Part shown: piece by piece, positions 12,456-59,236 of the stretch
Position numbering within the stretch: the stretch's first letter is position 1
Layout of the letters: each line of letters opens with the position of its first letter
IMG/VR virus record: IMGVR_UViG_3300029702_000002
Source of the DNA: a virus
Taxonomy: Duplodnaviria; Heunggongvirae; Uroviricota; Caudoviricetes
Strand: one strand, 5' to 3'
DNA: 64,000 nt
Program-made: the position numbers and the translations under genes
The notes under the pieces: generated by a model
Database searches by the model: none
What the model was told of the DNA's origin: nothing
Seen by the model: only the letters and a program-made list of their open reading frames with translations

Positions 12456-12498
12456 GTGCTTTCCTTTGTTTTTTAAACAAATTGTTTTCTAGTATTAG

Positions 12499-13248
12499 TT
12501 AATTAGATAGGGGATCAATAAACCGCCGTGCTTCTTCCAGTTCTTCTGGAAAGTGGGCGGAAATAAGGCGCTCTGGAACGATTTCCATTAGCCAGATAGC
12601 GGAGAAAATTGCGCGTATGCGCTTGCTGCGAGGTATGGTGCGCAAACGCTCCAGAATCCACTCAAAATAGCTTTCCTGAATCGGGTTGAACTGCATGTCT
12701 CCCATATGCTTAAAGCTAACAAGAGAGTCATCCAGACGGGTTGTTGCGCGTCTGGCTAATTTCTCTTCAAATATCTCAATCAGTTCTGGCTGCCACAAAT
12801 GCTGTGGGCGCGGCAGCTTGTCCCACAGCCGTCGTGCAGCTGCGGAAAGAACGGTGGAGATAAAGTAGTCGTATGAGCAGCAATAGCGATCCGCAAACTG
12901 GCGTGCTTTCCATAGCGACGTTTTGTTGGCAGTCGACAACTCCTGATAAGGCAGGCGTTTTAACCCGGTGGTGAACGGAGCTGTTTCAAAGTGTTCGCGA
13001 CCGTGCGTCAGCATGATATTTGAGTACTGACGTTTGTATGCCTCCGTAAAAAGACAGGTGGCCATGAGAGGATGCATGTCGCGGTAATCAAACCACTTCG
13101 TCTCGAAGAGTTCAGCCTCGTCTTTACAGCGCGACAAACCAATGTTTTCAGCGACCCACTTGTCCATAACAGCGGTATTCCACTCTGTCATGAAGTCGTA
13201 CTGGTCGTTGTCGATGGTATCGAAAAAGATTTGGCTCATGTGGCTCAC
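12499..13248 (-). CDS. Hypothetical protein (249 aa), possibly replication-associated
   Basis: ORF immediately upstream of helicase in same orientation. Confidence 0.55.
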   Translation of the reverse strand: MSHMSQIFFDTIDNDQYDFMTEWNTAVMDKWVAENIGLSRCKDEAELFETKWFDYRDMHPLMATCLFTEAYKRQYSNIMLTHGREHFETAPFTTGLKRLPYQELSTANKTSLWKARQFADRYCCSYDYFISTVLSAAARRLWDKLPRPQHLWQPELIEIFEEKLARRATTRLDDSLVSFKHMGDMQFNPIQESYFEWILERLRTIPRSKRIRAIFSAIWLMEIVPERLISAHFPEELEEARRFIDPLSN

Positions 13249-13355
13249 CTGGTAGGTAGTTACTTACTTATCACAATGAGCGGATGATAGCGACTGGTGG
13301 CAGTTTTTGGAAGTGGAAACGGAAGGGAGTTGTTCTGGTGGTGTCTTTTAAAAGA

Positions 13356-13410
13356 CCTGCTTCCGTATATATTTAATAAGTTACTTATTATTTATATATA
13401 CAGAAGCAGG
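13356..13410. repeat. 55-bp AT-rich near-palindrome, copy 1 (identical to 44652-44706)
   Basis: CCTGCTTCCGTATATATTTAATAAGTTACTTATTATTTATATATACAGAAGCAGG read in both places. Confidence 0.9.
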
Positions 13411-13521
13411 CATAACTTGTCGTCTTAGACGCCCAGAAGCTCTACACTTTGAGCCTGTTAAATTGATTAAAAACTTATGTGTAAAATAGAACGCATTAGT
13501 CAGTAGCAAAGAGATGCAATA

Positions 13522-14289
13522 ATGGACGATTTATCGGTATACGCGAGATCATTGGATAAGGCTAAATACTATGTTTACTGTCTCTATGATACAGAAGACA
13601 AGATGAAAAGACCGTTTTACATAGGAAAAGGCAAATCGACTCGTTGTCTCGATCACATCAAGTATCCCGATGACTCTCCCAAATCCATGCGGATCAAAGA
13701 ACTTTTGGCTAATAAAAAATTAGGCATAGATATACTTCGTCATGGTATGGATGAAACCACAGCCAAACTTGTTGAGGCGACATGCATCGACCTTATGGGG
13801 GTCGGAGAGCTTACGAATAAGGTACGAGGAAGTGGTTCCATGATGGGCAGAATATCACTGGACGCCTACCATCACTTAGTGCTGCAAGAGGAAACTGAAA
13901 TTGCTCCTGAGCACGCCGGTCTTGCCTTCCTGCTAAACAGCACCTACAAGTCAGGAATGTCCGCTCTGGCATTATATGAAGCTACGCGTGGCGTATGGGC
14001 AAAGGTTCCAAGAGACGAGAATCTCAAATATGCCTACGCTACATATGGTGGGCTGATAATGGAAGTTTATCAGATTGAATGCTGGGTCAAAGCCGGTTCT
14101 CAGCAGTACTTTACAAGGGATATAGCTCTTGGCCCCGACACAAAACGTTATGAATTTGTTGGCAGAATAGCCGATGAGCATATTAGAAAACTGTATGTAG
14201 GCAAATTAATCAAGAAGCCACCAAGCTACGGTAGCCCTTTTGTGAAGGTTGGGGTGGTTAGGACTGAACATAGTGTTAGCGCGGCATAA
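13522..14289 (+). CDS. GIY-YIG nuclease domain protein (free-standing, 255 aa)
   Basis: N-terminal YYVYCLYD...PFYIGKGKSTRCLDH matches GIY-YIG catalytic motif; lone plus-strand gene in minus-strand region. Confidence 0.7.
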   Translation: MDDLSVYARSLDKAKYYVYCLYDTEDKMKRPFYIGKGKSTRCLDHIKYPDDSPKSMRIKELLANKKLGIDILRHGMDETTAKLVEATCIDLMGVGELTNKVRGSGSMMGRISLDAYHHLVLQEETEIAPEHAGLAFLLNSTYKSGMSALALYEATRGVWAKVPRDENLKYAYATYGGLIMEVYQIECWVKAGSQQYFTRDIALGPDTKRYEFVGRIADEHIRKLYVGKLIKKPPSYGSPFVKVGVVRTEHSVSAA

Positions 14290-14341
14290 AGCTGACACTG
14301 TAGTTATGCATTGGCGCAATGTACGCGCCAATGCATGATTT

Positions 14342-14701
14342 TTAACCTTTCTTCATCAACTCTCGTTTGATTTCATCGGTACGCATCGTGACATCGGCAG
14401 CGGTGATCGCCTCATTCAATTTCACGATGTCCTCGATTTCCTGCGGTGACTTCTCTGCCAGATGGAAAATGGCTGCTCGAATCACGTCAGAACGAGTGAA
14501 CTTCTCGAAGCGAGGGATGAACTTCATCATCTCCAGCAGTTCGAAGTATTCGTCCTCCAGTGACATTGTGCGGCTTTTAATTTTCTCTTTGCCACGAGTC
14601 GGGCGTCCCTGTGGTCTGACTGGTTGGCGCAAAGGAGTTGTGTTCTTAGCCGGTGCATCAGGCTCTTTGCGCTTTGCTAGGTCACCCATTTTCATGGACA
14701 T
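14342..14701 (-). CDS. ParG-like small partition protein (basic N-terminal tail, putative ribbon-helix-helix C-terminus)
   Basis: 119-aa ORF translationally coupled (ATGA) to ParA-like gene. Confidence 0.5.
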   Translation of the reverse strand: MSMKMGDLAKRKEPDAPAKNTTPLRQPVRPQGRPTRGKEKIKSRTMSLEDEYFELLEMMKFIPRFEKFTRSDVIRAAIFHLAEKSPQEIEDIVKLNEAITAADVTMRTDEIKRELMKKG

Positions 14702-15369
14702 TATTCTTCTTCCTCCAGACTCAACAGATAATCTACAAATTCTTCAAACTCGGCTTCCGCCTTTTTGTCGCGCTCGCTACCGGTCATTTCAAAGATAGAA
14801 CGACCAGACTCTTCCGCATCATCATAGACGTTGCGGTTATATAGATTGACTGGCGCAGACTCGATTCCAAACGTCTCAACAATCTCTTTAGCCGCCAGAA
14901 TGCGAGACACTTGTGATGGCAAAGCCGGGCACTGGTTCATGACCGCGCGGACCTTCACTTTATCGTTTACATTGCGAACATTGTCGATAATAGGATCGAT
15001 GTCACGTAAAGATTTCAAATCACGACGCTTAGGACGCAGCGGGATAATGATAACGTCAGCCATCAGCATCGCTTGTCGCTGAATTTCGGAGTCGAAGCCA
15101 CCAGCATCTACCACTACAAACTCAGCTCTACCCTGAAGCGATTTTAGGTGCTTAATGATGTCATCCTGAACGTATGCAAAAGGAATCAGCTCCAGGTCTT
15201 CGTTCTGTCGACGGTCTTCACACCAGCTCGTTGTCGTGCGCTGAATATCTATATCGGTAATATAAACCTTCTTCTTCTTTTTGACTTTCAGGCAAACGGC
15301 AATTTGCTGGGCAACGGTGGATTTGCCAGGCCCGCCCTTTGTGCCGCCAACCACAAAGATCTTGGTCAT
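14701..15369 (-). CDS. ParA/MinD-family partition ATPase
   Basis: Deviant Walker A KIFVVGGTKGGPGKST at N-terminus, 222 aa. Confidence 0.85.
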   Translation of the reverse strand: MTKIFVVGGTKGGPGKSTVAQQIAVCLKVKKKKKVYITDIDIQRTTTSWCEDRRQNEDLELIPFAYVQDDIIKHLKSLQGRAEFVVVDAGGFDSEIQRQAMLMADVIIIPLRPKRRDLKSLRDIDPIIDNVRNVNDKVKVRAVMNQCPALPSQVSRILAAKEIVETFGIESAPVNLYNRNVYDDAEESGRSIFEMTGSERDKKAEAEFEEFVDYLLSLEEEE

Positions 15370-15687
15370 TGGAGAGTTCCCTTTGCGTATATAATTATCG
15401 TCTGAAACAACTTGTTTTCTTATATGTGATATAGCCTAAATGCCTACGGCTGCGGTGTAAAGGTTAAATGGTAGGTTGTGATTAACAATTGGCAAACATA
15501 GCTTGTATTTGTCTGTTGAAAAAAGTAACAATGACCTCTATATTACAAGTACGGTGATATGCCGTACACAATTTGATAATGCACACGTAATGGGCTATAG
15601 CCTTTTAAAGTAATTTTTGAGTCGAAAACTCAGTTTGAACAGAGGAGATTGATGGCCTTCCTACATCACGGCCATCAGGAGGAATAC

Positions 15688-15957
15688 ATGTCAGCACTAA
15701 AAAAGCAGCGCATCGATTTGAGATTAACCGATGACGATAAAAGCATCATCGAGGAAGCTGCCGCAATGTCTAACCAGAGCATTACTCAGTTTATGGTTAG
15801 CAGTGCATCTGAACGTGCCGTGAAAGTTATAGAGCAACACCGTAGACTAGTTCTGAATGAAGAATCCTGGAATCTGGTTATGGACGCTATAAGCAATCCT
15901 CCGGCACCGAACGACAAGCTGAAACGAGCTGCTGATCGTCTGAAAAGCATGGAGTAG
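15688..15957 (+). CDS. DUF1778/TacA-like antitoxin
   Basis: Small ORF immediately upstream of GNAT toxin; ATG 15688 preceded by CAGGAGGAA. Confidence 0.7.
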   Translation: MSALKKQRIDLRLTDDDKSIIEEAAAMSNQSITQFMVSSASERAVKVIEQHRRLVLNEESWNLVMDAISNPPAPNDKLKRAADRLKSME

Positions 15958-15964
15958 TTTACTC

Positions 15965-16486
15965 GTGGATAATATAAAGATAGAAATTTTCTCTGGAGAG
16001 AAAGATTATGATTTGAATGGTTTTGATTGCGGTGAAGAATCACTAAATGCCTTTTTAACCAACCACTTAAAAAGGCAGCATGAGGGAAAAATTCTTCGCG
16101 CTTATGTGCTTTGCACGAAAGAAGGCAGACCAAAAGTGTTAGGGTATTACACTTTGTCAGGTAGCTGCTTTGAAAAGGAGTCCTTACCTTCAAGAAGCCA
16201 GCAAAAGAAGGTACCTTATCGGAATGTTCCAAGTGTTACTTTGGGTAGGCTGGCTTTGGACAAGTCCCTTCAAGGTCAAGGATTTGGCTCAATGCTTGTA
16301 ACACATGCAATGCGCGTTGTGTACAATGCATCTCTTGCTGTAGGCATTCATGGACTTTTCGTTGAGGCGTTAAATGACAAAGCCAAGGCGTTTTATAAAA
16401 GTTTAGACTTTATCCAGCTGGTTGGTAACAACGAGCGTTCTTTGTTCTATCCTACAAAATCTATCGAAAAATTGTTCGAAGAATAA
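15965..16486 (+). CDS. GNAT acetyltransferase toxin (TacT/AtaT-like)
   Basis: 173-aa GNAT fold with LQGQGFGSMLV acetyl-CoA motif, 8 nt after antitoxin stop; GTG start. Confidence 0.75.
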   Translation: MDNIKIEIFSGEKDYDLNGFDCGEESLNAFLTNHLKRQHEGKILRAYVLCTKEGRPKVLGYYTLSGSCFEKESLPSRSQQKKVPYRNVPSVTLGRLALDKSLQGQGFGSMLVTHAMRVVYNASLAVGIHGLFVEALNDKAKAFYKSLDFIQLVGNNERSLFYPTKSIEKLFEE

Positions 16487-16517
16487 TGTACTCCCCTCAA
16501 GTGAGGGGAACTTCGCA

Positions 16518-16733
16518 TCACCAACCGCAAACTCTCTCTCCCATCGTATTGTGAAAAAGGATTTGGCGTTCGGTTTCTTCGGTCATCACATCATTATTGC
16601 TGATATAGATAGGCCCAGCTCCATCGCAGAACAATACGCTGGCGGTTTGTGGTTTAATGACGCACCCACTTATCATACAACTCACGATGAACGGCAGAAG
16701 CATCTTTCTGACGTATTTTATTGCTCGTCTCAT
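16518..16733 (-). CDS. Outer-membrane spanin (Rz1-like lipoprotein), overlapping i-spanin
   Basis: Signal peptide with lipobox ISGC; ORF overlaps 3' end of 16654-16905 in another frame. Confidence 0.5.
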   Translation of the reverse strand: MRRAIKYVRKMLLPFIVSCMISGCVIKPQTASVLFCDGAGPIYISNNDVMTEETERQILFHNTMGERVCGW

Positions 16734-16905
16734 TCACCACTTCCACTGTGCTTTGAAGTCGTTTTCTGTCTTCCTGTTTTGCCTTCTCTTCCATTGCTCG
16801 TCGCGCCGCATTCCCGCCCATCGTGTAAGCGCCGACAAGAACGAAAAGAACGGCAGCCAGCGTAATCAAAGCAACTTTTAGCTTTGTCATCAGGCTGCCT
16901 AGCAT
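16654..16905 (-). CDS. Inner-membrane spanin (Rz-like)
   Basis: N-terminal transmembrane segment then charged coiled-coil-like region; directly downstream of endolysin. Confidence 0.5.
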   Translation of the reverse strand: MLGSLMTKLKVALITLAAVLFVLVGAYTMGGNAARRAMEEKAKQEDRKRLQSTVEVVNETSNKIRQKDASAVHRELYDKWVRH

Positions 16906-16906
16906 A

Positions 16907-17626
16907 TTAGACCATCCCTTTCTGGTATTTTCTTACCTGCGACCAGGCAATGAATCCTGCCACAACAATAGTGGCAATACCGAAGATGATGCGTACTGTA
17001 TCCCCGCTAGAGATATGACCTTGTGCTTTATCCATAGCAGCGGAAACCTGCGGCATAACATCGGCCAGCTGCGCCAGACCAATACCTGCTGTAACAGTTG
17101 CGCCTGCAGTTTCTTTAGTTACAGGAACAGCCTTCACGGTTTTCACCGGCTTAACAACGCCAGCTCGACGCAGACCTTCCTCAATAACTTCTGCCGCATA
17201 CCAGGTGTTCAGCGTTTTTAGCGGGCCTCGGCCATTCTCGTGGCGAATGATTGCCTCAACCAAAGGTCGAAGGATGTCGTAATCATGCAGATCGATGATC
17301 ATGTCTGCGGTTACACCAACGGCTTTAGACACCTCATTAATGTAGGCGTCAGTATTGTTTTCATTCGGCGGTGCCCAGCGTTCAATAACTTCACGAATGG
17401 TATCGATACTTGTGCCGTCTTTTGCGCGACGTTTATCGTGGTAGGTAATTAGAGTCACCGCCAGCGCACGAATCCCCCAAACAGGGTCTTTAAACGTGCA
17501 AAAGCGCGGTTCGTCTGGATTCGCAACCAGACCTTGCCACGGTGATCCTTTATCAAGATTACCGGGGTTATTATTACGAATGCCTCTCGGAGTCTTCATC
17601 CTTGATCTCCTGTTATTGCAGTCCAC
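16907..17626 (-). CDS. Putative endolysin/peptidoglycan hydrolase with C-terminal hydrophobic segment
   Basis: GIRNNNPGNL motif-containing domain, position between holin-like and spanin genes; C-terminal VRIIFGIATIVVAGFIAW hydrophobic stretch. Confidence 0.55.
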   Translation of the reverse strand: MDCNNRRSRMKTPRGIRNNNPGNLDKGSPWQGLVANPDEPRFCTFKDPVWGIRALAVTLITYHDKRRAKDGTSIDTIREVIERWAPPNENNTDAYINEVSKAVGVTADMIIDLHDYDILRPLVEAIIRHENGRGPLKTLNTWYAAEVIEEGLRRAGVVKPVKTVKAVPVTKETAGATVTAGIGLAQLADVMPQVSAAMDKAQGHISSGDTVRIIFGIATIVVAGFIAWSQVRKYQKGMV

Positions 17627-17948
17627 TTTTTACGCCATACGCGGCTAACCCCAAAAGCAGTGCGGTAATAATGAACGACGTTATTTTAGAAACAATGCCG
17701 CCAAAGAACCCACTTGAGATGGAATCTAACCGGTTAAGGAGTTTGTCCAGATTGGAGTGTTGAATACTATGTTGCGCCGGGGTCATATCACCAAAGTAGG
17801 TTTTCAGCTGATCATTGACCTCCTGGCCAATTTCTTCACGTAGCTCTTTACCTAATTTGCCAACAACCTCCCGAGCAACGATCGCGGCAATACGCTCAAC
17901 TTGCTCTGTTGTAACGCCCGCCATCTCGTTCGACATGTTTTCCTCCAT
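17613..17948 (-). CDS. Holin-like membrane protein (single C-terminal TM)
   Basis: Position upstream of endolysin; C-terminal ITSFIITALLLGLAAYGV segment. Confidence 0.4.
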   Translation of the reverse strand: MEENMSNEMAGVTTEQVERIAAIVAREVVGKLGKELREEIGQEVNDQLKTYFGDMTPAQHSIQHSNLDKLLNRLDSISSGFFGGIVSKITSFIITALLLGLAAYGVKSGLQ

Positions 17949-44534: not shown

Positions 44535-44651
44535 AGATCCCTCTAAAACACACAGAGCGCGTCCATGCGCTCTAAAACAACTTGTTTACTGCATTTTCTA
44601 ACCAACTTGTTTTCTGGGTTGTTTAATTAGGTCTGGGCATGTCTTATTAAG

Positions 44652-44730: not shown

Positions 44731-44997
44731 TTACATCACCAGTAACTTCGCTTTGGCTCGACCTAAAGTGGTTAACCCAAGAGTTCGGCGGTGATAGCGA
44801 TTGTCACTGCGTTGGCGCGTATGCCCTTTCTCCACAAGCCCCTTTTTTATCAGAGCGCGAATTGAGAACTGGATACTTTGCTTGGTTGTCTTGTACGGCA
44901 AAACTTCAAGCAATTCGTCCAGATCAAGTAGATGACCTCGCTCATAACCGAGATTGAGCGTTTTGATGATGTCCTTTTGTTTATCGGTTAACGTCAT
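44731..44997 (-). CDS. Small putative DNA-binding protein (88 aa)
   Basis: AAGGA site; basic C-terminus; last gene of ParB/ATPase/GNAT operon. Confidence 0.45.
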   Translation of the reverse strand: MTLTDKQKDIIKTLNLGYERGHLLDLDELLEVLPYKTTKQSIQFSIRALIKKGLVEKGHTRQRSDNRYHRRTLGLTTLGRAKAKLLVM

Positions 44998-45897: not shown

Positions 45898-46559
45898 GAA
45901 TGGACCTCATCATGACTACCATTGTGATATTCCACCTTCACGCGTTCTTTGTAGTGCTTGGTGATCTGCATATCCGGGCGCAGCGCGTTCTTCAGGTCTT
46001 CGTGAGTCGTCGCCACCATTACCGTCGCACCAACCTTTCGCGCGGCACGCTGGAGGTTAGACGCCACAACCTGAGCGGTTACACGGTCGAGAACAGCGCC
46101 GAACTCGTCAGCAGCCCACACTTTAGCGCCTGACTCAATCAGTTTGGCAATCTTGAGACGATATTTCTGGCCGTCTGACATTTCAGAAGGCTTGCGAACA
46201 AACAGATATGCATCGTTCAGACCAGCCATAGATAACAACCCAAGCGCATCACTGGTCGTTTTGCCCAACTGATCGATGACGTTAACCTCATTATCGAAGG
46301 TAAAATCATCGATGGAGGCTACAGACAGCCCTTCATCCTTCATCTGTCGTTGCAACTCGCGCAGCACAACGGATTTGCCGGAACCGGATTGGCCGGTGAT
46401 GTACACCACATCGCCCTGCTTCACTTCCAGCTCCAGATTGTCGTAAAGCGTCCACTCTTTTTCGTCCAGGCCAAGCCCGAACGACTCAGCGATTTCCAAC
46501 GTGCGCGTGGTTTTATTTACGCGTGTCTGAAACGATATGTTGATGATGTATTTGCTCAT
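45894..46559 (-). CDS. ABC-type ATPase (single nucleotide-binding domain, 221 aa)
   Basis: Walker A GQSGSGKS, signature-like MSDGQKYR, Walker B VWAADEF, H-loop TTHE. Confidence 0.7.
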   Translation of the reverse strand: MSKYIINISFQTRVNKTTRTLEIAESFGLGLDEKEWTLYDNLELEVKQGDVVYITGQSGSGKSVVLRELQRQMKDEGLSVASIDDFTFDNEVNVIDQLGKTTSDALGLLSMAGLNDAYLFVRKPSEMSDGQKYRLKIAKLIESGAKVWAADEFGAVLDRVTAQVVASNLQRAARKVGATVMVATTHEDLKNALRPDMQITKHYKERVKVEYHNGSHDEVHS

Positions 46560-47224
46560 GCAGCCATCTCCCCGGAAGAGATCTTCTCCGCATATGCCAC
46601 AAATGCGTCTACCCCGCTTTCTCCCGTCATTTCTTCCATATGGGCAAGCAAATCACCAACAACAATGGCAGAGCCAGCAGGGAGCGTTTTAAAGCCCAAT
46701 ACGTCGACAACACGTACTTCTTCCGCTGCAACTTCACGACTGATCTCGGTGTGTTCATCCTTCTGTCGTTTAGTTTCTTCGCCAAGATCGATAACTAGCG
46801 AGTCGGTGTCCATTTCTTCTGTCATACTGCCAACGAGAACATTCAACTCACGCTCTTCAAAGCCGAAAACCTCGATATCGTCCAGAACAAGCGACTCAAG
46901 CTCTTTCTGTAGCTTAATTGCATCGTAATCAATGCTGGCAAGTCGGTTATCTTCAAGGCGCTTCGCACGAACCTCGTCATCACTGAGATCATCGCGAACA
47001 ATAACCGGTACGCGCTCAAGTCCAGCAAAAATTGCAGCCTCACGGCGGCCGTGGCCAGTAATAATTACGTCGTTCTTATCGACCGTAATTGGCTGGTCAA
47101 ATCCGCGCTTTTTAATGGCTGCGGCCAGATCTCGGATCTGCTGTTCATCATGCTTTTTGGCATTCATCTCATAGGGAATAAGATCTGCCGGGTCGCGATA
47201 TACGATTTCAAACTTTTTGGTCAT
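46556..47224 (-). CDS. ParB-like nuclease domain protein
   Basis: ParB N-terminal motif ITGHGRREAA; start at ATG 47224 overlapping upstream stop. Confidence 0.65.
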   Translation of the reverse strand: MTKKFEIVYRDPADLIPYEMNAKKHDEQQIRDLAAAIKKRGFDQPITVDKNDVIITGHGRREAAIFAGLERVPVIVRDDLSDDEVRAKRLEDNRLASIDYDAIKLQKELESLVLDDIEVFGFEERELNVLVGSMTEEMDTDSLVIDLGEETKRQKDEHTEISREVAAEEVRVVDVLGFKTLPAGSAIVVGDLLAHMEEMTGESGVDAFVAYAEKISSGEMAA

Positions 47225-47922
47225 TACATACGCTCCTTGTAGTAGTCGACCAGCCACACCAGAGCCTCACCAGCGTTCTCCATTTCATTACCGGTGTTAA
47301 TAGCCTGCTCTTTGATGATGTTTTTTATGGTTTCTGCAACACGATCTGACGCATCGAAAGTTACTTTGAAGCGCATGGTCTGATGTTCCGCACCCACACG
47401 TTCGGTTTTCTCTCGTTTGTCGGTATCGACAGGCTCATCACTACCACGAGACAACGCCTCCAGTGCTTCAAGGTCGATTGCCGCCTCTTTTGCTAAAACC
47501 ATCGAGATTTCGTCGTCATACGGGGCGATTTCAGACAGTTGATAGTCAAGTTCTGACTGAATTTCTTCAATGAAGCGTTGCAATGCGATTTGGTCGTCTT
47601 CACCGTATCGCTCGTTGTCCACCAGTGACATCTGTTTAGCTACGACATCGCTAATTTTGCCCACAGAAAGCACCGGAACCGTTGAAATTCCTTGCTCAAT
47701 AGCAGCACGCCAGCGATGTTCGCCGCCGAGGATTTCAAAAAATCCATCTTCAAGTTCACGAGCCAAAATTGGCTTAAAAAAGCCCAATTTTTCGATAGAA
47801 CCTTTCAGTTTTTCAAAATTCTGCGCACCAACCGAATTGGTGTTCCAGGTATTCGGGCGAAGGTTGGCAACATCAACCTGCAAAATCGTGATTTTTACAT
47901 CCATTTTATTGCTACAATCCAC
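47224..47922 (-). CDS. ParB-like nuclease domain protein
   Basis: ParB N-terminal motif ILGGEHRWRAA. Confidence 0.65.
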   Translation of the reverse strand: MDCSNKMDVKITILQVDVANLRPNTWNTNSVGAQNFEKLKGSIEKLGFFKPILARELEDGFFEILGGEHRWRAAIEQGISTVPVLSVGKISDVVAKQMSLVDNERYGEDDQIALQRFIEEIQSELDYQLSEIAPYDDEISMVLAKEAAIDLEALEALSRGSDEPVDTDKREKTERVGAEHQTMRFKVTFDASDRVAETIKNIIKEQAINTGNEMENAGEALVWLVDYYKERM

Positions 47923-49546: not shown

Positions 49547-49649
49547 TTATGAGCGAAAAGAAAACAACTTATTGTCAGGTAGCATTGTCTGATAAGGCCA
49601 ATGACAAACTTGGAAAGTTTCAAGTGAAACTAAAAGAAAAAATATCAAA

Positions 49650-49826
49650 ATGTCTAAGGCTGAAGTCATAAATACCATTCTGGAACAATTGACAATGGCC
49701 GACTTTGACAAGGTTATATCTTCTGTCGGGGCTTCCGCTAAGACTCGTGAGAAAATCATGCGTATCTATGAGAACTCTAATATGACAAAGGAAGATCTCG
49801 AAACGCTATTAAGCAGATTAAAATAA
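49650..49826 (+). CDS. Small hypothetical protein (58 aa)
   Basis: Short ORF below track cut-off between helicase and lipoprotein gene. Confidence 0.3.
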   Translation: MSKAEVINTILEQLTMADFDKVISSVGASAKTREKIMRIYENSNMTKEDLETLLSRLK

Positions 49827-49852
49827 TCACGCTATCAATTAGGGAGACAAAG

Positions 49853-50321: not shown

Positions 50322-50846
50322 ATGACAACCAAAGATATTACCTACGGTATCCAAGCTGAACTCTGGCCGCGAGATTACACTAACGTTGAAAAACTACTGA
50401 TGTTCTGGCGCAGAGAACAAATTCCTGTAAGGGTCACTCTCGAAGATGGCCAGGCGTTTTGCATGTACGTTTATGGCCTCATGCCATCTCGTAACAAAGT
50501 TGACCTTTGCCCAGCCCCTTTTGACAAAGAAAATCGTATAAGGCTCCCACTTGAACGCATTAGTACAATTGAATCAGGTGTGGTTGACAGTATCGCTCAC
50601 GATTTCAAAGGTCGACTAACAGTTCACCCTGATTATGTCGATAATCGGCCATCACGCCGCGATTTTTTTGCAATTTGCAACCAAGCCTACAAAGCAAACA
50701 AATCTATAAGGGTGTACATGGCGGATGGCCGTGAAATTGAGGGGGTGTCAGCAGGCGCAGATGCTTGTCAGGTTACACTACGTGTCGAGAACGTTAGAAA
50801 AATAGTTGTTTTGTTCGATTGGGTTGAACGAATTTTGCCTTTTTGA
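50322..50846 (+). CDS. Hypothetical cytoplasmic protein (174 aa)
   Basis: ATG 5 nt after lipoprotein stop. Confidence 0.5.
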   Translation: MTTKDITYGIQAELWPRDYTNVEKLLMFWRREQIPVRVTLEDGQAFCMYVYGLMPSRNKVDLCPAPFDKENRIRLPLERISTIESGVVDSIAHDFKGRLTVHPDYVDNRPSRRDFFAICNQAYKANKSIRVYMADGREIEGVSAGADACQVTLRVENVRKIVVLFDWVERILPF

Positions 50847-50849
50847 GTT

Positions 50850-52344: not shown

Positions 52345-52365
52345 TTTTTTTTAAGGAGCTTAATC

Positions 52366-52596: not shown

Positions 52597-52602
52597 AATC
52601 GA

Positions 52603-53155: not shown

Positions 53156-53211
53156 TTCCCTGCGGCAGCTGGTGGCTATAGAGAAAGGGCCGTTTCTGGC
53201 CCTCTTCTCAG

Positions 53212-53694
53212 TTACACGCCATCAAGGATGTGGATGCGGTTGCTTGCGTATACATTCAGCATAAAGTTAGCGCAAAACAGTTTCCATGTATCAACGCCAG
53301 CGGTATACGTAATGTTTTTGCATTTAATTGCATTGTTGGCGATCCGCATCCCCTGCGATACTGCTTCATCGTCGGAAAATTTGAACGACGATTGAGTTTT
53401 AATCCAGACAGAAATCTGCGTAGCGAACTCAATCAGCTTGGACTGGCAGAATCGCCCGGAGCGCACCGGAAAGACGAACGTTCCGAATCCAGAATTTACC
53501 ACATACGCTTTTTCAAATACCCGCGAGTAACGACGATTGCCAATGATGTCGCGTGCAATAATGCATTTTTCTTGTGCTGACAGTTCTACCGTCTCATTGT
53601 CGCGCCATGCACCAAGTACTCGTTTTTCAATGTCAGAGAACGTTACAGCGATATTGCCATGTGCGGGTGCGTTTACAGTAGCGATAAAATTCAT
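53212..53694 (-). CDS. Hypothetical protein (160 aa), monocistronic cassette
   Basis: Shared upstream promoter/operator element. Confidence 0.55.
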   Translation of the reverse strand: MNFIATVNAPAHGNIAVTFSDIEKRVLGAWRDNETVELSAQEKCIIARDIIGNRRYSRVFEKAYVVNSGFGTFVFPVRSGRFCQSKLIEFATQISVWIKTQSSFKFSDDEAVSQGMRIANNAIKCKNITYTAGVDTWKLFCANFMLNVYASNRIHILDGV

Positions 53695-53898
53695 GATTAA
53701 TTCCTTATCGTAAATAACAAATTGTTTTCTTGTTGGTGTTAATTATCGTTGTACGAATAAGGCGTCAAAGTGGAAAGTTACGGTAGCCGGACGGGAACAG
53801 GTGGGTTTGTCGGTTGCCTGGAGGTAAGAGGTTGGTGTTTTTAGCCTGCGGGAAACAAGATAGTCATTTAAGGCCACCAATGCTGGTGGCCTTAGCCT

Positions 53899-54180
53899 TT
53901 AGTGGAGCAGACCGATGTCGATGGTATCCCCTGAATCATCCACACGGATCATCAGCATGGCAAAGGCGTTTAGTGGATAGCTTGCGTGCCATTCAGGGAA
54001 GCGGTCATCTCGCATGAAGTCGACAATGTCGTAAACGCATCCCTCAAAGTGGAAGAATCGCGTGCTTACCTGCTCGTCATAATCCACATGATCCATTTCT
54101 TGCTGTTCTGTTTCCGGCAAGTCCAGCCATGATTCAAGAAATACATTTTGTGCTTTAGGGGTAATGGTGAAATCAGTCAT
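53899..54180 (-). CDS. Small acidic hypothetical protein (93 aa), monocistronic cassette
   Basis: ATG at 54180 with GAGGA site; conserved upstream element and 3' hairpin 53871-53895. Confidence 0.5.
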   Translation of the reverse strand: MTDFTITPKAQNVFLESWLDLPETEQQEMDHVDYDEQVSTRFFHFEGCVYDIVDFMRDDRFPEWHASYPLNAFAMLMIRVDDSGDTIDIGLLH

Positions 54181-54369
54181 GAGCATATCCTCACTGCGTA
54201 AACATGTTGTTTTCTTGTTGGTGTAATTATCGCAGTGTAGATAAGGCATAAAAGAAGTTAATACAGGCTGAATACACAAGAAAGGTTATGGAAGTTGATA
54301 GCCAGGTTTCAAACTAACCTTCGGTTATTAAAAGTCATTTAAGACCACCAATGCTGGTGGCCTTAATAA

Positions 54370-54513
54370 TTATCGCCCGATTACGCTAAGGATCTTTTCC
54401 TCAACTGATTTGTTGTTGCGACTAAACTGCCTTGCGTATCTGATGACAGAAGAGGCGTTTTGCTTTCTGACCATCTCGGCTCTTTCCTTCAGGCGTTTCT
54501 TGAAATCGCCCAT
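54370..54513 (-). CDS. Small basic protein (47 aa), coupled to upstream gene
   Basis: Short ORF starting 2 nt after stop of 54516-54890 and ending 5 nt before conserved hairpin. Confidence 0.3.
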   Translation of the reverse strand: MGDFKKRLKERAEMVRKQNASSVIRYARQFSRNNKSVEEKILSVIGR

Positions 54514-54515
54514 AT

Positions 54516-54890
54516 TTACCACCAGGCGCAGAAGGTCAGTCTGTTATTGTGAAAGTCGTGGTTCTTAATCAGATCTTCCACAAGCTCTTTCAACTGCCCC
54601 ACATCATGCCAGTAACCTTCATCGTACTCCTGACTGCCGAAGAAAAAACCTTCCCGGGTAGGCAAGTACTCTTCGCAATTACTTTCGTTTATGTGCATCA
54701 AATGAGCCTTCAGAAAACAAATGTCATTCATCGTTAATTCTAAAAGCTCACAATTTTCGACTTCACCTACGTTGCGCTCCATCCACCCAACGAGCGCATT
54801 GAACTTACGGAAGTAAGCAACCTGCTTTCTGGATGCCTCGTTATTCAGATCGTTTTTAGGCTGCGTCTCGATATAGATATCAAGTCCCAT
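54516..54890 (-). CDS. Hypothetical protein (124 aa), monocistronic cassette
   Basis: ATG 54890 with AAGGAAACC site; conserved upstream element. Confidence 0.5.
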   Translation of the reverse strand: MGLDIYIETQPKNDLNNEASRKQVAYFRKFNALVGWMERNVGEVENCELLELTMNDICFLKAHLMHINESNCEEYLPTREGFFFGSQEYDEGYWHDVGQLKELVEDLIKNHDFHNNRLTFCAWW

Positions 54891-55007
54891 GATGGTTTCC
54901 TTATTAAGTTGCTTCAGTGAAATCATTTTCACAAATCAGATAAGGCAGAAAACAAATTGTTATCGGGCATAATAAAATGGCGCGGTTTACGCGCCATTTA
55001 AAGAGGA

Positions 55008-55403
55008 TTAAGCGAATACGCTTTCAGGGATTAAGGTGTCGGCAGGAATGCCAGAGGTAATGCGCAGGCCGTACTGACCAATCCAGGTAGTGTTGGTATT
55101 CAGGCTGGAGGCGAATACGGTGTTAACCATATTCATCATGGTTTCAAACACCTCTTCATTAACCTGGCGGAAGTAGTTCTCGATTTTCAGCAGCAGCGGG
55201 TCAGTTGCATCGAGAATGGACTGGTATTGAGTCGCGTACTCGCCGCCGGAGGCATCACCTTTACGCACGATCGTACTGGCCTGGACTTCGGCACCAGTTT
55301 CGGTGTTGTACGTAACAACGGTGATTTTTGCCACATTCTTACCTTCGGCGGTTTCAGAGGCATAGTAAACATCAACTGTCAGTTTTTCGCGTTTAACGGT
55401 CAT
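55008..55403 (-). CDS. Hypothetical protein (131 aa)
   Basis: ATG 55403 with GGAGAG site. Confidence 0.5.
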   Translation of the reverse strand: MTVKREKLTVDVYYASETAEGKNVAKITVVTYNTETGAEVQASTIVRKGDASGGEYATQYQSILDATDPLLLKIENYFRQVNEEVFETMMNMVNTVFASSLNTNTTWIGQYGLRITSGIPADTLIPESVFA

Positions 55404-55529
55404 TTCACTCTCCGTAGTGTTTTGGTTATTTTTATATTCTATGATCGTAAGTATGTACTTACAATACAAAAAAGCCCCGTAAGGATGGCGGGGCTGTCGT
55501 ACGGTCGACTAATTACCACTTGCACATTA

Positions 55530-55841
55530 TCAGGCTATTGCCATCACTGATGCTCTCTGAATCTCTTGCTGGGCCACGCGGTTAACTTCCATCAAAGCCA
55601 GTTCGAGCTGATGTTCCGGCCACATTCTTTGAAATGCCACCCAGCCTTTTCCACGCTGGCGACGAACATTCATTACATAACGAGTAAAGGTGTTTTTATC
55701 GAAAGACACCGCTGTTTCACGGAACAGACGAATAGAGGTTCCATTGGCAACGATGTCCAGCAAAGTTAATTGAGCAACCAGCGCAGGCTTCTCTTTTCTC
55801 TTCTGGTCTTTGTCCAGACCAAGAACCAATGATTTTTTCAT
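55530..55841 (-). CDS. Hypothetical basic protein (103 aa)
   Basis: ATG 55841 with GGAG site; conserved upstream element at 55853-55867. Confidence 0.5.
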   Translation of the reverse strand: MKKSLVLGLDKDQKRKEKPALVAQLTLLDIVANGTSIRLFRETAVSFDKNTFTRYVMNVRRQRGKGWVAFQRMWPEHQLELALMEVNRVAQQEIQRASVMAIA

Positions 55842-55994
55842 CACAACTCCGTAAACAACTTGTTTTCTCAATGGCGTAAATAATACCAGTAAGAAAACGG
55901 CTACAAAGCATATTGATCAGGTGCATGAGCTATATGCAGGTTCTTCCCTGCGGCTATAGAGAAATTAAGCCAGCAATGCTGGCTTTGGTTGGGG

Positions 55995-56324
55995 TTACTC
56001 GAATACTTCAAGAAACTCCTGAACGTCCCAATGCTGGACGAGGTGAAGATAGACCTTAGAAATCACGTCATTTTCGCTATCGCATGTGAAGTAGTACTTC
56101 TGGCTGCGGTTGTATGTGTCCACACAAAATTCGCTCATATCCATAAAGTCAGCATCTTCACCCAGGTCGCTGATCATCAAAGCAGGTGCGTCATCACGAG
56201 TCATCAGTTCCAGCACCCATCTTGAATTGATCAGAGTGGAAGACCAACCTTCTAACTCATAAAACTGATCAAACTCTTTTTGAGTTAATTTCTTGATTTG
56301 GTTGATGTCGATATTTGTAAACAT
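55995..56324 (-). CDS. Small acidic hypothetical protein (109 aa)
   Basis: ATG 56324 with AAGGA site; conserved upstream element; 3' hairpin 55968-55986. Confidence 0.5.
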   Translation of the reverse strand: MFTNIDINQIKKLTQKEFDQFYELEGWSSTLINSRWVLELMTRDDAPALMISDLGEDADFMDMSEFCVDTYNRSQKYYFTCDSENDVISKVYLHLVQHWDVQEFLEVFE

Positions 56325-56679
56325 AAAGCAATCCTTAAACAACATGTTTTCTTGATGGTGTTATTATCGCAATAACGCACAGGCGAAAAAGGATTTTGTT
56401 CCGGTGAATGTGGTTTTGGCAGTGAGTTTTCAGGTTCAGTACCGAGTACACTTTTTACATTATTCTGATTTAGTGGCCGAAAGTGGCTGGTGGCAGAGTA
56501 ATCCTCTCCCCAAAAACCTACTGAAATCGATTGTGACCCGTTGGCTGTCTGGCACAATTACGCTGTAGCTGGGCATTCAGAGGGAATCCAGCGGTAAGCA
56601 AGTCCGCCTACGTGAGCGCCTCTCTTCTTCCCGCACATTACAGGTGGGTAGCCGCAACTCTCCCTCTCGCTATACCGGT

Positions 56680-56830
56680 ACGCCACCGTTCCTGAACCGG
56701 CATCGAGCCTTTTCCCGAAATCCACACAGGCAACTCGACCGTTTCCCTGAAAACCTCCAGCCGTTCCCCGAAGGCAACCCAGCCGTTTCTGTAGCGGGAT
56801 GCAGCCTTTTCCCTGTATGGACCGAAGGCT
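56680..56830. repeat. Iteron-like direct repeats (CCGTTTCCCTGAAAACC family), cluster B, 6 copies
   Basis: Six imperfect 20-23-bp units in tandem, same family as 53070-53155. Confidence 0.55.
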
Positions 56831-56859
56831 GACCGTAGGGGTGTTACGGGGGGATAAAA

Positions 56860-57780
56860 TCAGGAGTTGAATAAATACGAAAAAGGAGGCGACACCCCTC
56901 CTTCCCTCCCCACTTATACATACCTGGCTTCTTCGCTATACATGTTGTGTTTTATCTGTCTCAACCTCTCTATAGGCGTTAATGCTCACTCCTTCCAGAA
57001 TGTTCTATACGGCGACTATTTCTGTTGGTGAATTGGGTGTGTTGTTTTCTCTGTCGGTGTATGTGGTTTCGTTCGTTTTGCGGTGGTTCTTCTATGGGGT
57101 GTTCTCGTCGTTTTGGTGATTGTTCTTCTCCGTGTATGGAGTAATGGCAGGTGGGCGATTCCTTTCGTTGTTGTGTTTGAGTTGTTTGTCTGGAGTGTGT
57201 GAAAGGCTTTTGTAGTTATTCGTGTATTGGGTAATGGCGTTTCCCGTGATTGTTATGTTTCGTGTCTTTTGGGATTGAGAGAATCCTTGCGGTTACAGGC
57301 TTCGTTGGGGTTTCAGCGGTTCAGGTGTTTCTTCGCTGTTTGGGTAATGGCGTGTCGTGGGTATCGCGCGTATGAATGTTTTCGGATTGCCTGTGAAAGT
57401 TAGGTTGGTTGTCCGGTAGCCTGGGGAGAAGAGGTGGGTCTTTTCGGTAGCCTGCCATAAAGAGGTTGGTTGTTTTTGGGAATGGCATGTGTGTTATTTA
57501 GTTGTTTTGTTATGCCTGAAAATAAGTTGTTTATATGGTTGTGTAACGCAACGGGAGCGATTTTGAGCGTGTGTTTTTGTTGGTAGTGTGTTGGGTCGTC
57601 TGTGGTGAAAATTGGACGCTGTGGCGCTGTCTGCTGCGTAGCAGTTACGGGTATAAGAAGTGATGTGTGAAAACGTCAATTTTTTAGACCAAATCGGGTG
57701 AAAGCGTTGACGTTTCGTTGATCTGTTATTTAGTTGTTTTCTTATTTGTATAAACAACCATAACCTATTGATATTTAAGG
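56860..57780. repeat. ORF-free GT-skewed region with degenerate direct repeats of about 115 bp (units begin GGGTAATGGCG)
   Basis: Plus strand almost exclusively G/T-rich for about 900 bp; three GG(G/A)GTAATGGC copies and two CGGTAGCCTG copies. Confidence 0.55.
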
Positions 57781-57876
57781 GTATGATTGCAGGTATGGAA
57801 GGGGAGTAGTGGCGATCAACGGATTCTTATAGAAAAGAATCAAATTGTGACCGCCATTATCAATAAGTTGCAACCG

Positions 57877-58446
57877 TTAGTTGTTCAGATAAACATTTGG
57901 AACACGGACGTAGAAGTTCCTGTCACCGGTAAGTTCCAGAGTAATGTTAATGTCATTACCATTGTCTAGTGTAGCCGTTGCTCTATAGAACTTATCCGTC
58001 ACCTTGTCCTCTATTGTCACCTTCATACATTTTGGTGCAGTCGAACCGTTATTCTCTTTCAGAATAGTTGTCACGAGAGGGCAGGCTGCTTCTTCAAGAG
58101 CAACCTCGTCCTTGTGTGGGATGCCGATGAAGATAATCCAAGCCAGCGACGCAACGATTATGATAAATGGCACTCTGCTGCCTTTTGTAATAGTCGCGCG
58201 CTTCCAGAGATAGACAGGCAGGAGGAATACCCCCCATAGAATTGAAGGTGGTTCACAGCCAGACTCCGATAGAGCCATTCTGTCAGCTACTAACAAACCG
58301 ATGGTAGTTACACCCCCAATTATAATAGCGTAATTGGTATACTCTTCCGGCAATACTCCAAAGAAGAAAGGCATGAACGCTAGAATCCACGCATAAATGT
58401 TATTCAGAGGTTTTGTTTGTTGGTTCTGGGTTTCCATCACATCCAT
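57877..58446 (-). CDS. Integral membrane protein (189 aa)
   Basis: Several hydrophobic segments. Confidence 0.5.
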   Translation of the reverse strand: MDVMETQNQQTKPLNNIYAWILAFMPFFFGVLPEEYTNYAIIIGGVTTIGLLVADRMALSESGCEPPSILWGVFLLPVYLWKRATITKGSRVPFIIIVASLAWIIFIGIPHKDEVALEEAACPLVTTILKENNGSTAPKCMKVTIEDKVTDKFYRATATLDNGNDINITLELTGDRNFYVRVPNVYLNN

Positions 58447-58598
58447 TCCATCACATAAAAATCGCGTTTATATATTATCAATTTTCTCACTTGTATAACC
58501 TAAATACGCATCCGTTTATCAATCCACCTTCCACAAACATCAGCTTTGGCTATGAAAAATAACAATCTCAAAGTGAAACCATTATCATAGGATAACGA

Positions 58599-58784
58599 TT
58601 AGATGAGATGGTCTAATTCATCATCTATCATCGCTTTAACACTTGAGTCATTAACCCCGTATTGATTTATGAGCCGTTTCAGCTCCGGTGAAAACTGAAG
58701 GTAGATATCGTGGGCGTTTTTCACTGTAGGTTCAACGCCACGCATTTCAAGCGCCTTTAGTAGATATGAGTCTTCTTTAAGCAT
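58599..58784 (-). CDS. Small hypothetical protein (61 aa)
   Basis: Short ORF, weak support. Confidence 0.3.
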   Translation of the reverse strand: MLKEDSYLLKALEMRGVEPTVKNAHDIYLQFSPELKRLINQYGVNDSSVKAMIDDELDHLI

Positions 58785-58820
58785 AAATTCTCCGTTATCT
58801 AGTATGAAGCGATTGCCGGA

Positions 58821-59120
58821 TTACCATTGCCAGCACTCAAGCCCTTCAACGACCGGTGCGCCACAATCAAAATGTACAGAGTCAAAGCCTACATCAAGTA
58901 CTTTCTGAATGTTCGCAATCGCGCCCTCGGATATACCATATCGACGCAACTCATCTTTCCAGTCATCGTCCTGTAACCCGGCGTGGACAATGCAACCGTA
59001 CTCAATTTGTGAAACCCAATCCAGCTCATTGCTTGCGATCATGAATCGGCGAGCATCTTCCTCTGATGTATGAGATGAGCTGATCAATGCCACCTGGTAG
59101 GCTTGGGTAATGTTCAACAT
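58821..59120 (-). CDS. Hypothetical protein (99 aa); rightmost prophage gene
   Basis: Preceded by two copies of the shared AAACAA-N-TTGTTT operator element (59133-59148, 59184-59198). Confidence 0.5.
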   Translation of the reverse strand: MLNITQAYQVALISSSHTSEEDARRFMIASNELDWVSQIEYGCIVHAGLQDDDWKDELRRYGISEGAIANIQKVLDVGFDSVHFDCGAPVVEGLECWQW

Positions 59121-59236
59121 TTAAACCACTCCAAAACAAGTTGTTTTCTTATGTGGTTTATTATCTCAATCAACAAAAGGCAGAAAACAAATTGTTTTAG
59201 GGTATGTGTAAATCAGAAGGGATTGTGTCTAAATGA

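What the first reader, a model, noticed from the sequence alone, without database searches (positions are those of the whole stretch)
12475..59198. Dispersed 13-bp palindrome AAACAA-N-TTGTTT(TC) upstream of many early genes (candidate global repressor operator)
The palindrome recurs at 12475-12489 (helicase operon), 15405-15419 (parA), 44574-44589 and 44601-44614 (terS), 49559-49574, 53715-53728, 54200-54214, 54949-54964, 55853-55867, 56337-56351, 59133-59148 and 59184-59198, always 15-60 nt upstream of a start codon. A fixed-spacing palindrome in so many promoters suggests one dimeric regulator controlling replication, partition, packaging and accessory genes, like the dispersed operators of P1-type phages. 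The regulator gene is not identified.
Basis: seen in the sequence. Interest (0 to 1): 0.65.

Follow-up and report, generated by a model that had tools for sequence, protein, structure and literature searches.

The report
Dispersed operator palindrome in SSU5-like phage-plasmids
A 13-base palindrome sits in about a dozen promoters of this SSU5-like phage-plasmid and is unchanged in relatives from E. coli, Salmonella, Klebsiella, Enterobacter and Yersinia, so it is most likely the binding site of one element-encoded repressor that keeps replication, partition, packaging and accessory genes quiet in the plasmid state.

Summary
AAACAANTTGTTT occurs 12 times in the window at up to one mismatch, against 0.5 expected. 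The site at 49559 is not, and a site at 57520 was missed. The window is an SSU5/pHCM2-type phage-plasmid. Five complete relatives carry 16-20 copies each and pMT1 keeps 6, always with the same sequence and at the same promoters, while the flanking DNA diverges. Most sites lie 13-14 bp downstream of a -10 box (about +8 to +20) and 11-40 nt before the start codon. A few overlap the -35 region of a promoter. The palindrome gives no stable RNA hairpin and shows no compensatory changes. In an LF82 lysogen the linked genes sit at background, apart from the parA operon. I read it as a DNA operator for a repressor. The best candidate is the small protein after ParA (14342-14701). It is clade-restricted like the motif, expressed in the lysogen, preceded by a site in its own operon, and its predicted DNA-reading segment is invariant. 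Binding is untested. A second dispersed palindrome (TAAGTANNTACTTA) appears tied to the CI-like repressor. Verdict: a new member of a known kind, of moderate interest.

The parts
12475..12487 (-). class-1 palindrome, 19 nt upstream of the DnaB-like helicase start (12455)
   Evidence: conserved in SSU5, pJN2-26, pCP102 and pKSB1_9A_3
15405..15417 (-). class-1 palindrome, 35 nt upstream of the parA start (15369); preceded by a conserved TAGGCT -10-like box
44575..44587 (-). class-1 palindrome, proximal copy upstream of terS (start 44534)
44600..44612 (-). class-1 palindrome, distal copy upstream of terS (1 mismatch), 25 bp centre to centre from the proximal copy
53715..53727 (-). class-1 palindrome of an accessory-gene cassette (ORF 53212-53694); GATAAT at 53742-53747, 14 nt upstream
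54200..54212 (-). class-1 palindrome of an accessory-gene cassette (ORF 53899-54180); GATAAT at 54226-54231
54950..54962 (-). class-1 palindrome directly after a hairpin and running into a -35-like TTGTTTTCTGCC box (ORF 54516-54926)
55853..55865 (-). class-1 palindrome of an accessory-gene cassette (ORF 55530-55841); TATTAT at 55880-55885
56337..56349 (-). class-1 palindrome of an accessory-gene cassette (ORF 55995-56324); GATAAT at 56363-56368
59134..59146 (-). class-1 palindrome, downstream copy of a double-operator promoter (DUF5983 ORF 58821-59120); GATAAT at 59160-59165
59185..59197 (-). class-1 palindrome, upstream copy overlapping the -35 region of the same promoter
14342..14701 (-). 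best candidate regulator: 119-aa protein encoded directly after the small ParA. It has a disordered basic N-terminus followed by a strand-helix-helix pattern (inferred ribbon-helix-helix), and the segments IKSRTMS-EDE and FTRSDVIRAAI are invariant.
   Evidence: expressed in the lysogen
14701..15369 (-). small ParA ATPase (222 aa), first gene of the operon behind the 15405 site
   Evidence: CbiA, MipZ and ParA family hits on orthologues
44731..44997 (-). alternative candidate: 88-aa winged-helix protein directly upstream of the terS sites
   Evidence: disfavoured
50322..50846 (+). alternative candidate for an RNA-level model: FljA-family protein (PF03614)
   Evidence: disfavoured

Best explanation
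The 13-bp palindrome is a double-stranded-DNA operator. It is built into a family of sigma-70-type promoters of SSU5-like phage-plasmids of Enterobacteriaceae and Yersinia. A symmetric, element-encoded repressor is proposed to bind it. At most promoters the site is centred at about +14, where a bound protein would block RNA polymerase binding or promoter escape. At a few promoters it covers the -35 region, and at two promoters there are two copies. This would keep about 18 transcription units low in the plasmid (lysogenic) state. They include the replicative helicase operon, parA, cobT, nrdB, terS and a string of single-gene accessory cassettes. My preferred regulator is the small protein encoded after ParA (window 14342-14701), about 0.35-0.4 likely. 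On that reading it is a ParG/omega-type centromere-binding protein that autoregulates its own operon through the 15405 site and has been recruited as a global repressor, and the sites might also serve as dispersed centromeres. Shown here: enrichment, symmetry, position, conservation, silence of the linked genes in a lysogen, and the distribution and residue conservation of the candidates. Inferred: transcription start sites, repression, the protein's fold, and all binding.
For: Enrichment is 12 against 0.5 expected in the window. There are 18, 20, 17, 16 and 19 sites in five complete relatives and 6 in pMT1. Both half-sites are near-invariant and the centre is free. Single mismatches are never compensated, and the RNA hairpin is worth only 0 to -1.8 kcal/mol, no better than shuffles. 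The -10 box has fixed spacing (GATAAT 13-14 nt upstream; T at -14 in 34 of 38 sites), and some sites overlap -35 regions. At the helicase and parA promoters the motif is the conserved island in five lineages, and at cobT in three of the four compared, while the flanks diverge. Linked genes read 5-13 against a background of 9.8 in the LF82 lysogen, apart from the parA operon at 50-89, the helicase at 21 and one accessory gene (CYRAN_111) at 25. For the ParA partner: it is found in 797 plasmids, matching the spread of the enterobacterial clade. It is absent from the Acinetobacter and Aeromonas relatives, which also lack the motif. It is expressed in the lysogen. A site precedes its own operon. 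Its overall identity falls to 49% while the strand and second helix stay invariant. In Moellerella, where the motif is not enriched, the basic arm and the strand differ. The 7-bp half-site spacing suits ribbon-helix-helix proteins (established knowledge of omega, MetJ and CopG).
Against: No binding or transcription-start data exist. The ribbon-helix-helix fold is not demonstrated: the monomer model has pLDDT 63 and no fold match, and profile comparisons with ParG and CopG are not significant. pMT1 has lost parA and its partner but keeps six intact sites, although it is a recent deletion derivative. Most phage genes are silent in the lysogen, so silence of the linked genes does not discriminate. 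The one-sided AAGA flank is unexplained by a purely symmetric binder. The motif is totally invariant while every element-encoded candidate diverges, which also fits a conserved host factor.
Confidence: 0.55

Rival explanations
1. The motif acts in the 5' untranslated RNA. It would be bound by the element's FljA-family protein (window 50322-50846), which, like Salmonella FljA on fliC mRNA, would block translation and destabilise about 18 mRNAs.
For: Most sites lie between the inferred transcription start and the ribosome-binding site, 11-40 nt before the ATG. A PF03614 protein with a weak Hfq-like C-terminal match is encoded. It is present in every motif-bearing lineage and absent from Moellerella and Acinetobacter, with only a weak partial match in Aeromonas. 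It is expressed in lysogens under several conditions.
Against: The palindrome forms no stable RNA hairpin, and mismatches are never compensated. Mirror-image conservation of the two halves has no reason in single-stranded RNA. Several sites overlap -35 regions directly after hairpins. The protein is only 36% identical in pKSB1_9A_3 while the motif is unchanged. The E. coli fliC leader has no such motif.
Confidence: 0.1
2. The palindrome is the site of a chromosomal transcription factor conserved in Enterobacteriaceae and Yersinia, which the phage-plasmid uses to tie its promoters to host physiology.
For: The motif is invariant across lineages whose own candidate regulators have diverged to 36-78%. 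By contrast, the second palindrome class changes along with the CI-like repressor. The motif is absent from relatives in Acinetobacter, Aeromonas and Moellerella. pMT1 keeps its sites without the ParA partner.
Against: I know of no E. coli regulator with this consensus (from memory only, not tested). LexA, KdgR and LacI-family boxes differ in spacing or sequence. No paper in the library contains the sequence. I could not scan a host chromosome for the motif.
Confidence: 0.12
3. The palindrome is a positive or polymerase-directed element: an activator site, a promoter-proximal pause or antiterminator-loading site, or part of a specialised promoter.
For: There is a fixed distance to the -10 box and a one-sided AAGA flank. 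The -35 regions are poor by a consensus scan. The terS leader carries two copies followed by a conserved terminator-like hairpin.
Against: Activators rarely act from +14. Most sites have no terminator downstream and only 11-20 nt before the start codon. A dimer-type symmetry is not expected of a pause signal or promoter element. The linked genes are off in the lysogen.
Confidence: 0.08
4. The repeat is mainly an evolutionary by-product: a promoter cassette copied with accessory genes by recombination, like the promoter-stem-loop cassettes of T4-type phages, with no dedicated binding protein.
For: Five accessory cassettes share about 45 bp of promoter sequence, and each ORF ends in a hairpin. 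The gene content between cassettes differs between relatives.
Against: At core genes (helicase, parA, cobT, terS) only the 13-bp palindrome and its short flank are conserved, not a cassette. Conservation is concentrated on the palindrome itself.
Confidence: 0.05

Closest known systems
Phage-plasmid P1 C1 repressor and its dispersed operators
   Same: It is also a phage-plasmid whose genome carries well over a dozen copies of one operator at scattered promoters, including a replicative helicase gene (ban in P1, a DnaB-like helicase here), which are kept off in the plasmid state (established knowledge).
   Different: P1 operators are asymmetric 17-bp sites bound by a large monomer, whereas this site is a 13-bp palindrome. 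No regulator has been shown here. SSU5-like elements have two site classes, and it is the other class that lies at the CI-like repressor gene.
Omega (inc18 plasmid pSM19035) and ParG (TP228): ribbon-helix-helix partition proteins that also repress transcription
   Same: In both systems a small protein is encoded after a small ParA. It has a flexible N-terminus and autoregulates its operon, and omega also represses other promoters through the same 7-bp units, which double as centromeres. Here the half-site spacing is 7 bp and a site precedes parA.
   Different: Omega needs arrays of 7-10 heptads at three promoters, whereas here there are two inverted units at about 18 promoters. The fold is only inferred, and there is no detectable sequence relationship.
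KorB/KorA global regulons of IncP plasmids
   Same: KorB binds a 13-bp palindrome (TTTAGCSGCTAAA) present in 12 dispersed copies, and it is the partition protein acting as a global repressor (established knowledge).
   Different: KorB is a ParB-type helix-turn-helix protein that acts at a distance. The two ParB-domain proteins here (46556-47922) are not expressed in the lysogen. The sites here are promoter-proximal.
Promoter-early stem-loop (PeSL) cassettes of T4-type phages
   Same: A repeated promoter module plus hairpin frames each small accessory ORF in a variable region.
   Different: PeSLs are described as recombination and early-promoter modules, not as carriers of a palindromic operator. 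Here the same palindrome also sits at core genes that lack the cassette.

Membership tests
Dispersed-operator repressor regulon (P1 C1 type) | Many copies of one site scattered over the element, far above chance | tested here: met
   12 against 0.5 expected in the window; 16-20 per genome in five relatives
Dispersed-operator repressor regulon (P1 C1 type) | Sites overlap promoters or the transcription start region | tested here: inconclusive
   -10 boxes lie 13-14 nt upstream, or the site overlaps a -35-like box. Promoters are inferred from sequence, there are no start-site data, and a simple consensus scan did not call them.
Dispersed-operator repressor regulon (P1 C1 type) | An element-encoded repressor binds the sites, and the genes are derepressed on induction | not testable with these tools
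   Only indirect evidence: linked genes are at background in the LF82 lysogen
Omega/ParG-type partition protein acting as regulator | Gene directly follows a small (type Ib) ParA ATPase | tested here: met
   A 222-aa ParA with CbiA/MipZ/ParA hits is followed by the 119-aa protein
Omega/ParG-type partition protein acting as regulator | Ribbon-helix-helix fold with a flexible N-terminal tail | tested here: inconclusive
   The model has residues 1-47 disordered, then helices 48-60 and 70-84, which fits strand-helix-helix. However, pLDDT is 63, there is no fold match, there are no PDB sequence hits, hhalign against ParG and CopG is not significant, and the only family hit is a weak aCcr1 match.
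Omega/ParG-type partition protein acting as regulator | Binding sites upstream of its own operon | tested here: met
   The palindrome and a TAGGCT box are the only conserved elements upstream of parA in five lineages. Whether the protein binds there is untested.
KorB/ParB-type global repressor | A ParB-family protein available in the plasmid state | tested here: not met
   ParB_N proteins are encoded, but they read 5-9.5 against a background of 9.8 in the lysogen
FljA-type 5'-leader translational operator | An FljA-family protein is encoded | tested here: met
   PF03614, E = 2.9e-83
FljA-type 5'-leader translational operator | The target acts as RNA (a structure or strand-specific element), and the protein is conserved alongside it | tested here: not met
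   Hairpin energy is 0 to -1.8 kcal/mol, no better than shuffles. There are no compensatory changes. The protein is 36% identical where the motif is unchanged. The fliC leader lacks the motif.
PeSL-like mobile promoter cassette | A repeated promoter plus hairpin frames accessory ORFs | tested here: met
   Five cassettes share the promoter, and terminator-like hairpins follow the ORFs

The most novel reading that the evidence does not exclude
The ParA-associated centromere-binding protein of SSU5-like phage-plasmids is also their global transcriptional repressor. Through about 18 identical 13-bp sites it would hold phage replication, nucleotide-metabolism, packaging and accessory genes in check. 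The same dispersed sites would act as centromeres, so plasmid segregation and maintenance of the prophage state would be coupled through one small protein. This would work alongside a separate CI-like repressor that uses the second palindrome class.
Probability: 0.3. Interest if true: 0.7.

Novelty: new member of a known kind. Interest (0 to 1): 0.5.

Why it matters
SSU5/pHCM2/pMT1-type phage-plasmids are common: about 800 enterobacterial records in one plasmid database match this element's terminase and ParA partner. They occur in E. coli, Klebsiella, Salmonella Typhi and Yersinia pestis and can carry resistance genes. A 2024 review of phage-plasmids and my literature searches turned up nothing on how they control their genes. 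A defined operator sequence, a map of the promoters it marks, a short list of candidate binders and a second site class give direct handles for studying the choice between plasmid life and lytic growth. The operator-controlled promoter cassettes could also be reused for engineering. If the partition protein is the regulator, this would extend the omega/KorB principle from plasmids to a tailed phage.

Tried and rejected
(1) A collection scan for AAGAAAACAANTTGTTT in viral contigs returned mostly single chance hits and was not informative.

(2) The small protein after the UvsW-like helicase (CYRAN_117 homologue, window 49549-49827) looked like a ribbon-helix-helix repressor expressed in lysogens. 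I rejected it because it is 52-58% identical in SSU5 and pJN2-26, 36% in pCP102 and undetectable in pKSB1_9A_3 while the motif is unchanged, and its predicted DNA-facing strand residues vary.

(3) The CI-like HTH protein next to the integrase lies just outside the window. SSU5 lacks it yet has 20 sites, and its own promoter carries the other palindrome.

(4) The winged-helix protein at 44731-44997 is confirmed as DNA-binding by fold. However, it is at background in the lysogen, and its recognition helix is identical in Moellerella, which lacks the motif.

(5) The Cra-like and 71-aa proteins are 44-48% identical or absent in motif-bearing lineages.

(6) The ParB-domain pair is not expressed in the lysogen.

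(7) The FljA link through the fliC leader gave no motif.

(8) Searches for a classical repeat-array centromere near parA found none.

(9) Homology searches for the candidates returned only close relatives with no names.
Full report
**What the window is.** Megablast places the window in the SSU5/pHCM2 family of phage-plasmids. It is 96-98% identical to Escherichia phages CMS-2020a, PhiR41_1 and Cyrano (pLF82), and about 80% identical over half its length to Klebsiella and Salmonella relatives. It runs antiparallel to the Cyrano record. It spans roughly from the integrase through the replication, partition, lysis, tail, head and terminase genes into a variable accessory region. The genes next to the motif are all on the minus strand.

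**The observation.** AAACAANTTGTTT occurs 6 times exactly (0 expected) and 12 times at up to one mismatch (0.51 expected). The 49559 site has two mismatches, lies inside the first codons of a small gene and is not conserved in SSU5. A site at 57520 was missed. The palindrome ends 11-40 nt before the start codon, or about 65 nt for the upstream member of the two double sites.

**Anatomy.** I read the sites on the transcribed strand and pooled 38 sites from Cyrano and SSU5.
- The twelve specified positions are conserved in 34-38 of 38 sites each, and the centre is random.
- There is a one-sided AAGA flank 5' of the palindrome, and a T at -14 in 34 of 38 sites.
- In five accessory cassettes of the window the T at -14 or -15 is the last base of GATAAT or TATTAT, 13-14 nt upstream. 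That box is preceded by a T-rich block and GCCTTAT about 11 nt before it.
- At parA, a TAGGCT box conserved in five lineages lies at -21 to -16, with TTTACA 17 bp upstream.
- With a start 6-9 nt after the -10 box (inference), the palindrome covers about +8 to +20.
- A minority of sites sit directly after a hairpin and run into the -35-like TTGTTTTCTGCC of the next promoter (54950 and 59185 here; several more in relatives).
- The promoter at 59134/59185 has both positions occupied, and terS has two copies 25 bp apart.
- Each small accessory ORF between 53.2 and 59.2 kb ends in a terminator-like hairpin, so these are single-gene units.

**DNA or RNA.** The palindrome can only form a 5-bp stem with a 3-nt loop. 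Predicted energies are 0 to -1.8 kcal/mol, no better than shuffled sequence. Variant sites carry single changes that are never compensated. Together with the equal conservation of both halves and the sites that overlap -35 regions, this favours a symmetric protein on double-stranded DNA.

**Conservation.**
- Whole-genome scans at up to one mismatch give 18 sites in Cyrano, 20 in SSU5, 17 in Klebsiella pJN2-26, 16 in Enterobacter pCP102, 19 in Klebsiella pKSB1_9A_3 and 6 in the deletion derivative pMT1 of Y. pestis. At least two of these (pJN2-26 11788, pCP102 6617) look like in-gene chance matches.
- The sequence is the same even where the terminase small subunit is only 58% identical.
- Upstream of the helicase, parA and cobT the palindrome is the conserved island in otherwise diverged DNA.
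- Relatives from Acinetobacter and Aeromonas (terminase 53-59% identical), and one from Moellerella, show no enrichment of the motif.
- No paper in the library contains the sequence, and a recent review gives no regulatory information for SSU5-type elements.

**Expression.** In published RNA-seq of the LF82 lysogen (PMC9928086, supplementary table), the genes directly behind the sites read 5-13 against a background median of 9.8. The exceptions are parA and its two downstream genes (50-89), the helicase (21) and one accessory gene (25). This fits repression with an autoregulated parA operon. It is weak evidence, because most phage genes are silent in the lysogen.

**A second palindrome.**
- A palindrome screen also found TAAGTA-NN-TACTTA (fuller form ATAGGTAAGTACTTACCTAT). 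It has 11 hits against 0.07 expected in the window and 14-33 matches per relative, some of them overlapping registers of the same site.
- These sites lie upstream of other genes, including tail genes, the gp32-type single-strand-binding protein gene, sbcD, thyX and the ParB-domain operon.
- Related forms occur in Acinetobacter (AGTAAGCGCTTACT, 26 sites) and Aeromonas (AGTAA-N4-TTACT, 12 sites), and the inner bases differ in pCP102.
- A full copy lies about 30 bp upstream of the CI-like HTH repressor gene in Cyrano and pJN2-26. That protein diverges in step with this motif.
- The element therefore has at least two dispersed site classes, and the classic immunity repressor probably uses the second one.

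**Who binds the first class.** I compared every plausible candidate across lineages.
- *CI-like protein:* SSU5 lacks it yet has 20 sites.
- *Small protein after the UvsW-like helicase:* it falls to 36% identity or becomes undetectable in motif-bearing lineages.
- *FljA-family protein:* it falls to 36% identity.
- *Cra-like protein:* it falls to 44%.
- *The 71-aa protein:* it is absent from pCP102.
- *ParB-domain proteins:* they are silent in the lysogen.
- *The 88-aa protein at 44731-44997:* it models confidently as a MarR-like winged helix (pLDDT 82, TM about 0.7). However, it is at background in the lysogen, and its recognition helix is identical in Moellerella, which lacks the motif.
- *The 119-aa protein after ParA:* it stands out. 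It occurs in 797 plasmids, matching the enterobacterial clade. It has no homologue in the Acinetobacter or Aeromonas relatives. It is expressed in the lysogen, and its operon starts with a site. Its overall identity falls to 49% while IKSRTMS-EDE and FTRSDVIRAAI stay invariant. In Moellerella the preceding basic arm differs and the strand has V in place of M.

Its position after a small ParA, its disordered basic N-terminus and its strand-helix-helix pattern fit ParG/omega-type proteins. I could not confirm the fold. pMT1 keeps its sites without this gene, but pMT1 is a recent deletion derivative.

**Conclusion.** The finding is real and is best read as a repressor operator shared by about 18 promoters. 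It is a new example of the dispersed-operator design known from P1, omega and KorB. The regulator is still unproven, and the ParA partner is the leading candidate. The main rivals are a conserved host factor and an RNA-level role for the FljA-like protein.

Noticed in passing
window 4637, 7990, 13253, 18000, 22221, 29144, 35633, 41124/41128, 47923, 55448 (14-bp sites): There is a second dispersed palindrome, TAAGTA-NN-TACTTA (fuller form ATAGGTAAGTACTTACCTAT), with 11 hits against 0.07 expected. It lies upstream of a different set of genes (tail, lysis and the ParB-domain operon, among others). Related forms occur in Acinetobacter and Aeromonas relatives. A full copy sits at the CI-like repressor gene of Cyrano and pJN2-26, so it is probably that repressor's operator.
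   Followed up: partly
window 44554-44573 (minus strand), between the class-1 sites and terS: The terS leader contains a hairpin, AGAGCGC-ATGGAC-GCGCUCU, followed by GUGUGUUUU. It is conserved in SSU5 and pJN2-26 and has compensatory changes (CGGCGC/GCGCCG) in pCP102. It looks like a terminator or attenuator in front of the late operon, which hints at antitermination control.
   Followed up: partly
window 49549-49827 (plus strand), A-run near 49638-49645: The homologue of the 92-aa Cyrano protein CYRAN_117 (expressed in lysogens, with a strand-helix-helix pattern) is split into 40-aa and 58-aa ORFs by a one-base deletion in an A-run, relative to Cyrano. This is either a real frameshift or a homopolymer sequencing error.
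   Followed up: partly
window 50322-50846 (plus strand): This gene encodes an FljA-family protein (PF03614, E = 2.9e-83) with a weak Hfq-like C-terminal match. It may be a cargo gene that silences host flagellin. The E. coli K-12 fliC leader shows no class-1 motif.
   Followed up: partly
window 53200-59250: The accessory region is built of single-gene units, each with the same roughly 45-bp promoter-operator module and a terminator-like hairpin. The gene content between modules differs between relatives, which resembles the promoter-stem-loop shuffling cassettes of T4-type phages. The ORFs have no known function; one is DUF5983.
   Followed up: partly
window 1159-1695 (plus strand): This is the homologue of CYRAN_43, by far the most highly expressed Cyrano gene in the LF82 lysogen (about 7000 against a background of 9.8). 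It has no family match and is absent from SSU5, pJN2-26 and pMT1.
   Followed up: no
window 15424-15437 and 15590-15603: There are two copies of an AGGCTATA(G/T)C element (one is the perfect palindrome GGCTATAGCC) upstream of parA, between parA and the divergent toxin-antitoxin pair. The proximal copy contains the conserved TAGGCT box. It could be a separate operator.
   Followed up: no
L130 30780-31445 and class-2-like sites of NZ_CP016299.1: The Acinetobacter relative encodes a sigma-70-family sigma factor between the MoxR-like ATPase gene and dnaE. Its 26 AGTAAGCGCTTACT sites are flanked by ATTATT and ATAAT, so there the palindrome abuts -10-like hexamers on both strands.
   Followed up: no
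L147 about 11090-11170 (Moellerella pW18-2-b, upstream of parA): The full palindrome is absent here. However, ATAAGAAAACAA (the left half plus its flank) is present, with an inverted GTTTTCTT about 33 bp away, as if the half-sites were split around the promoter.
   Followed up: no
window 3430-3882 (minus strand); 62611-63000 (minus strand): There is a cluster of tRNA-Ser, tRNA-Thr and tRNA-Asn genes. There is also a UmuD-like S24 peptidase gene without a DNA-binding domain, whose Cyrano homologue is well expressed in the lysogen (148 against 9.8).
   Followed up: no
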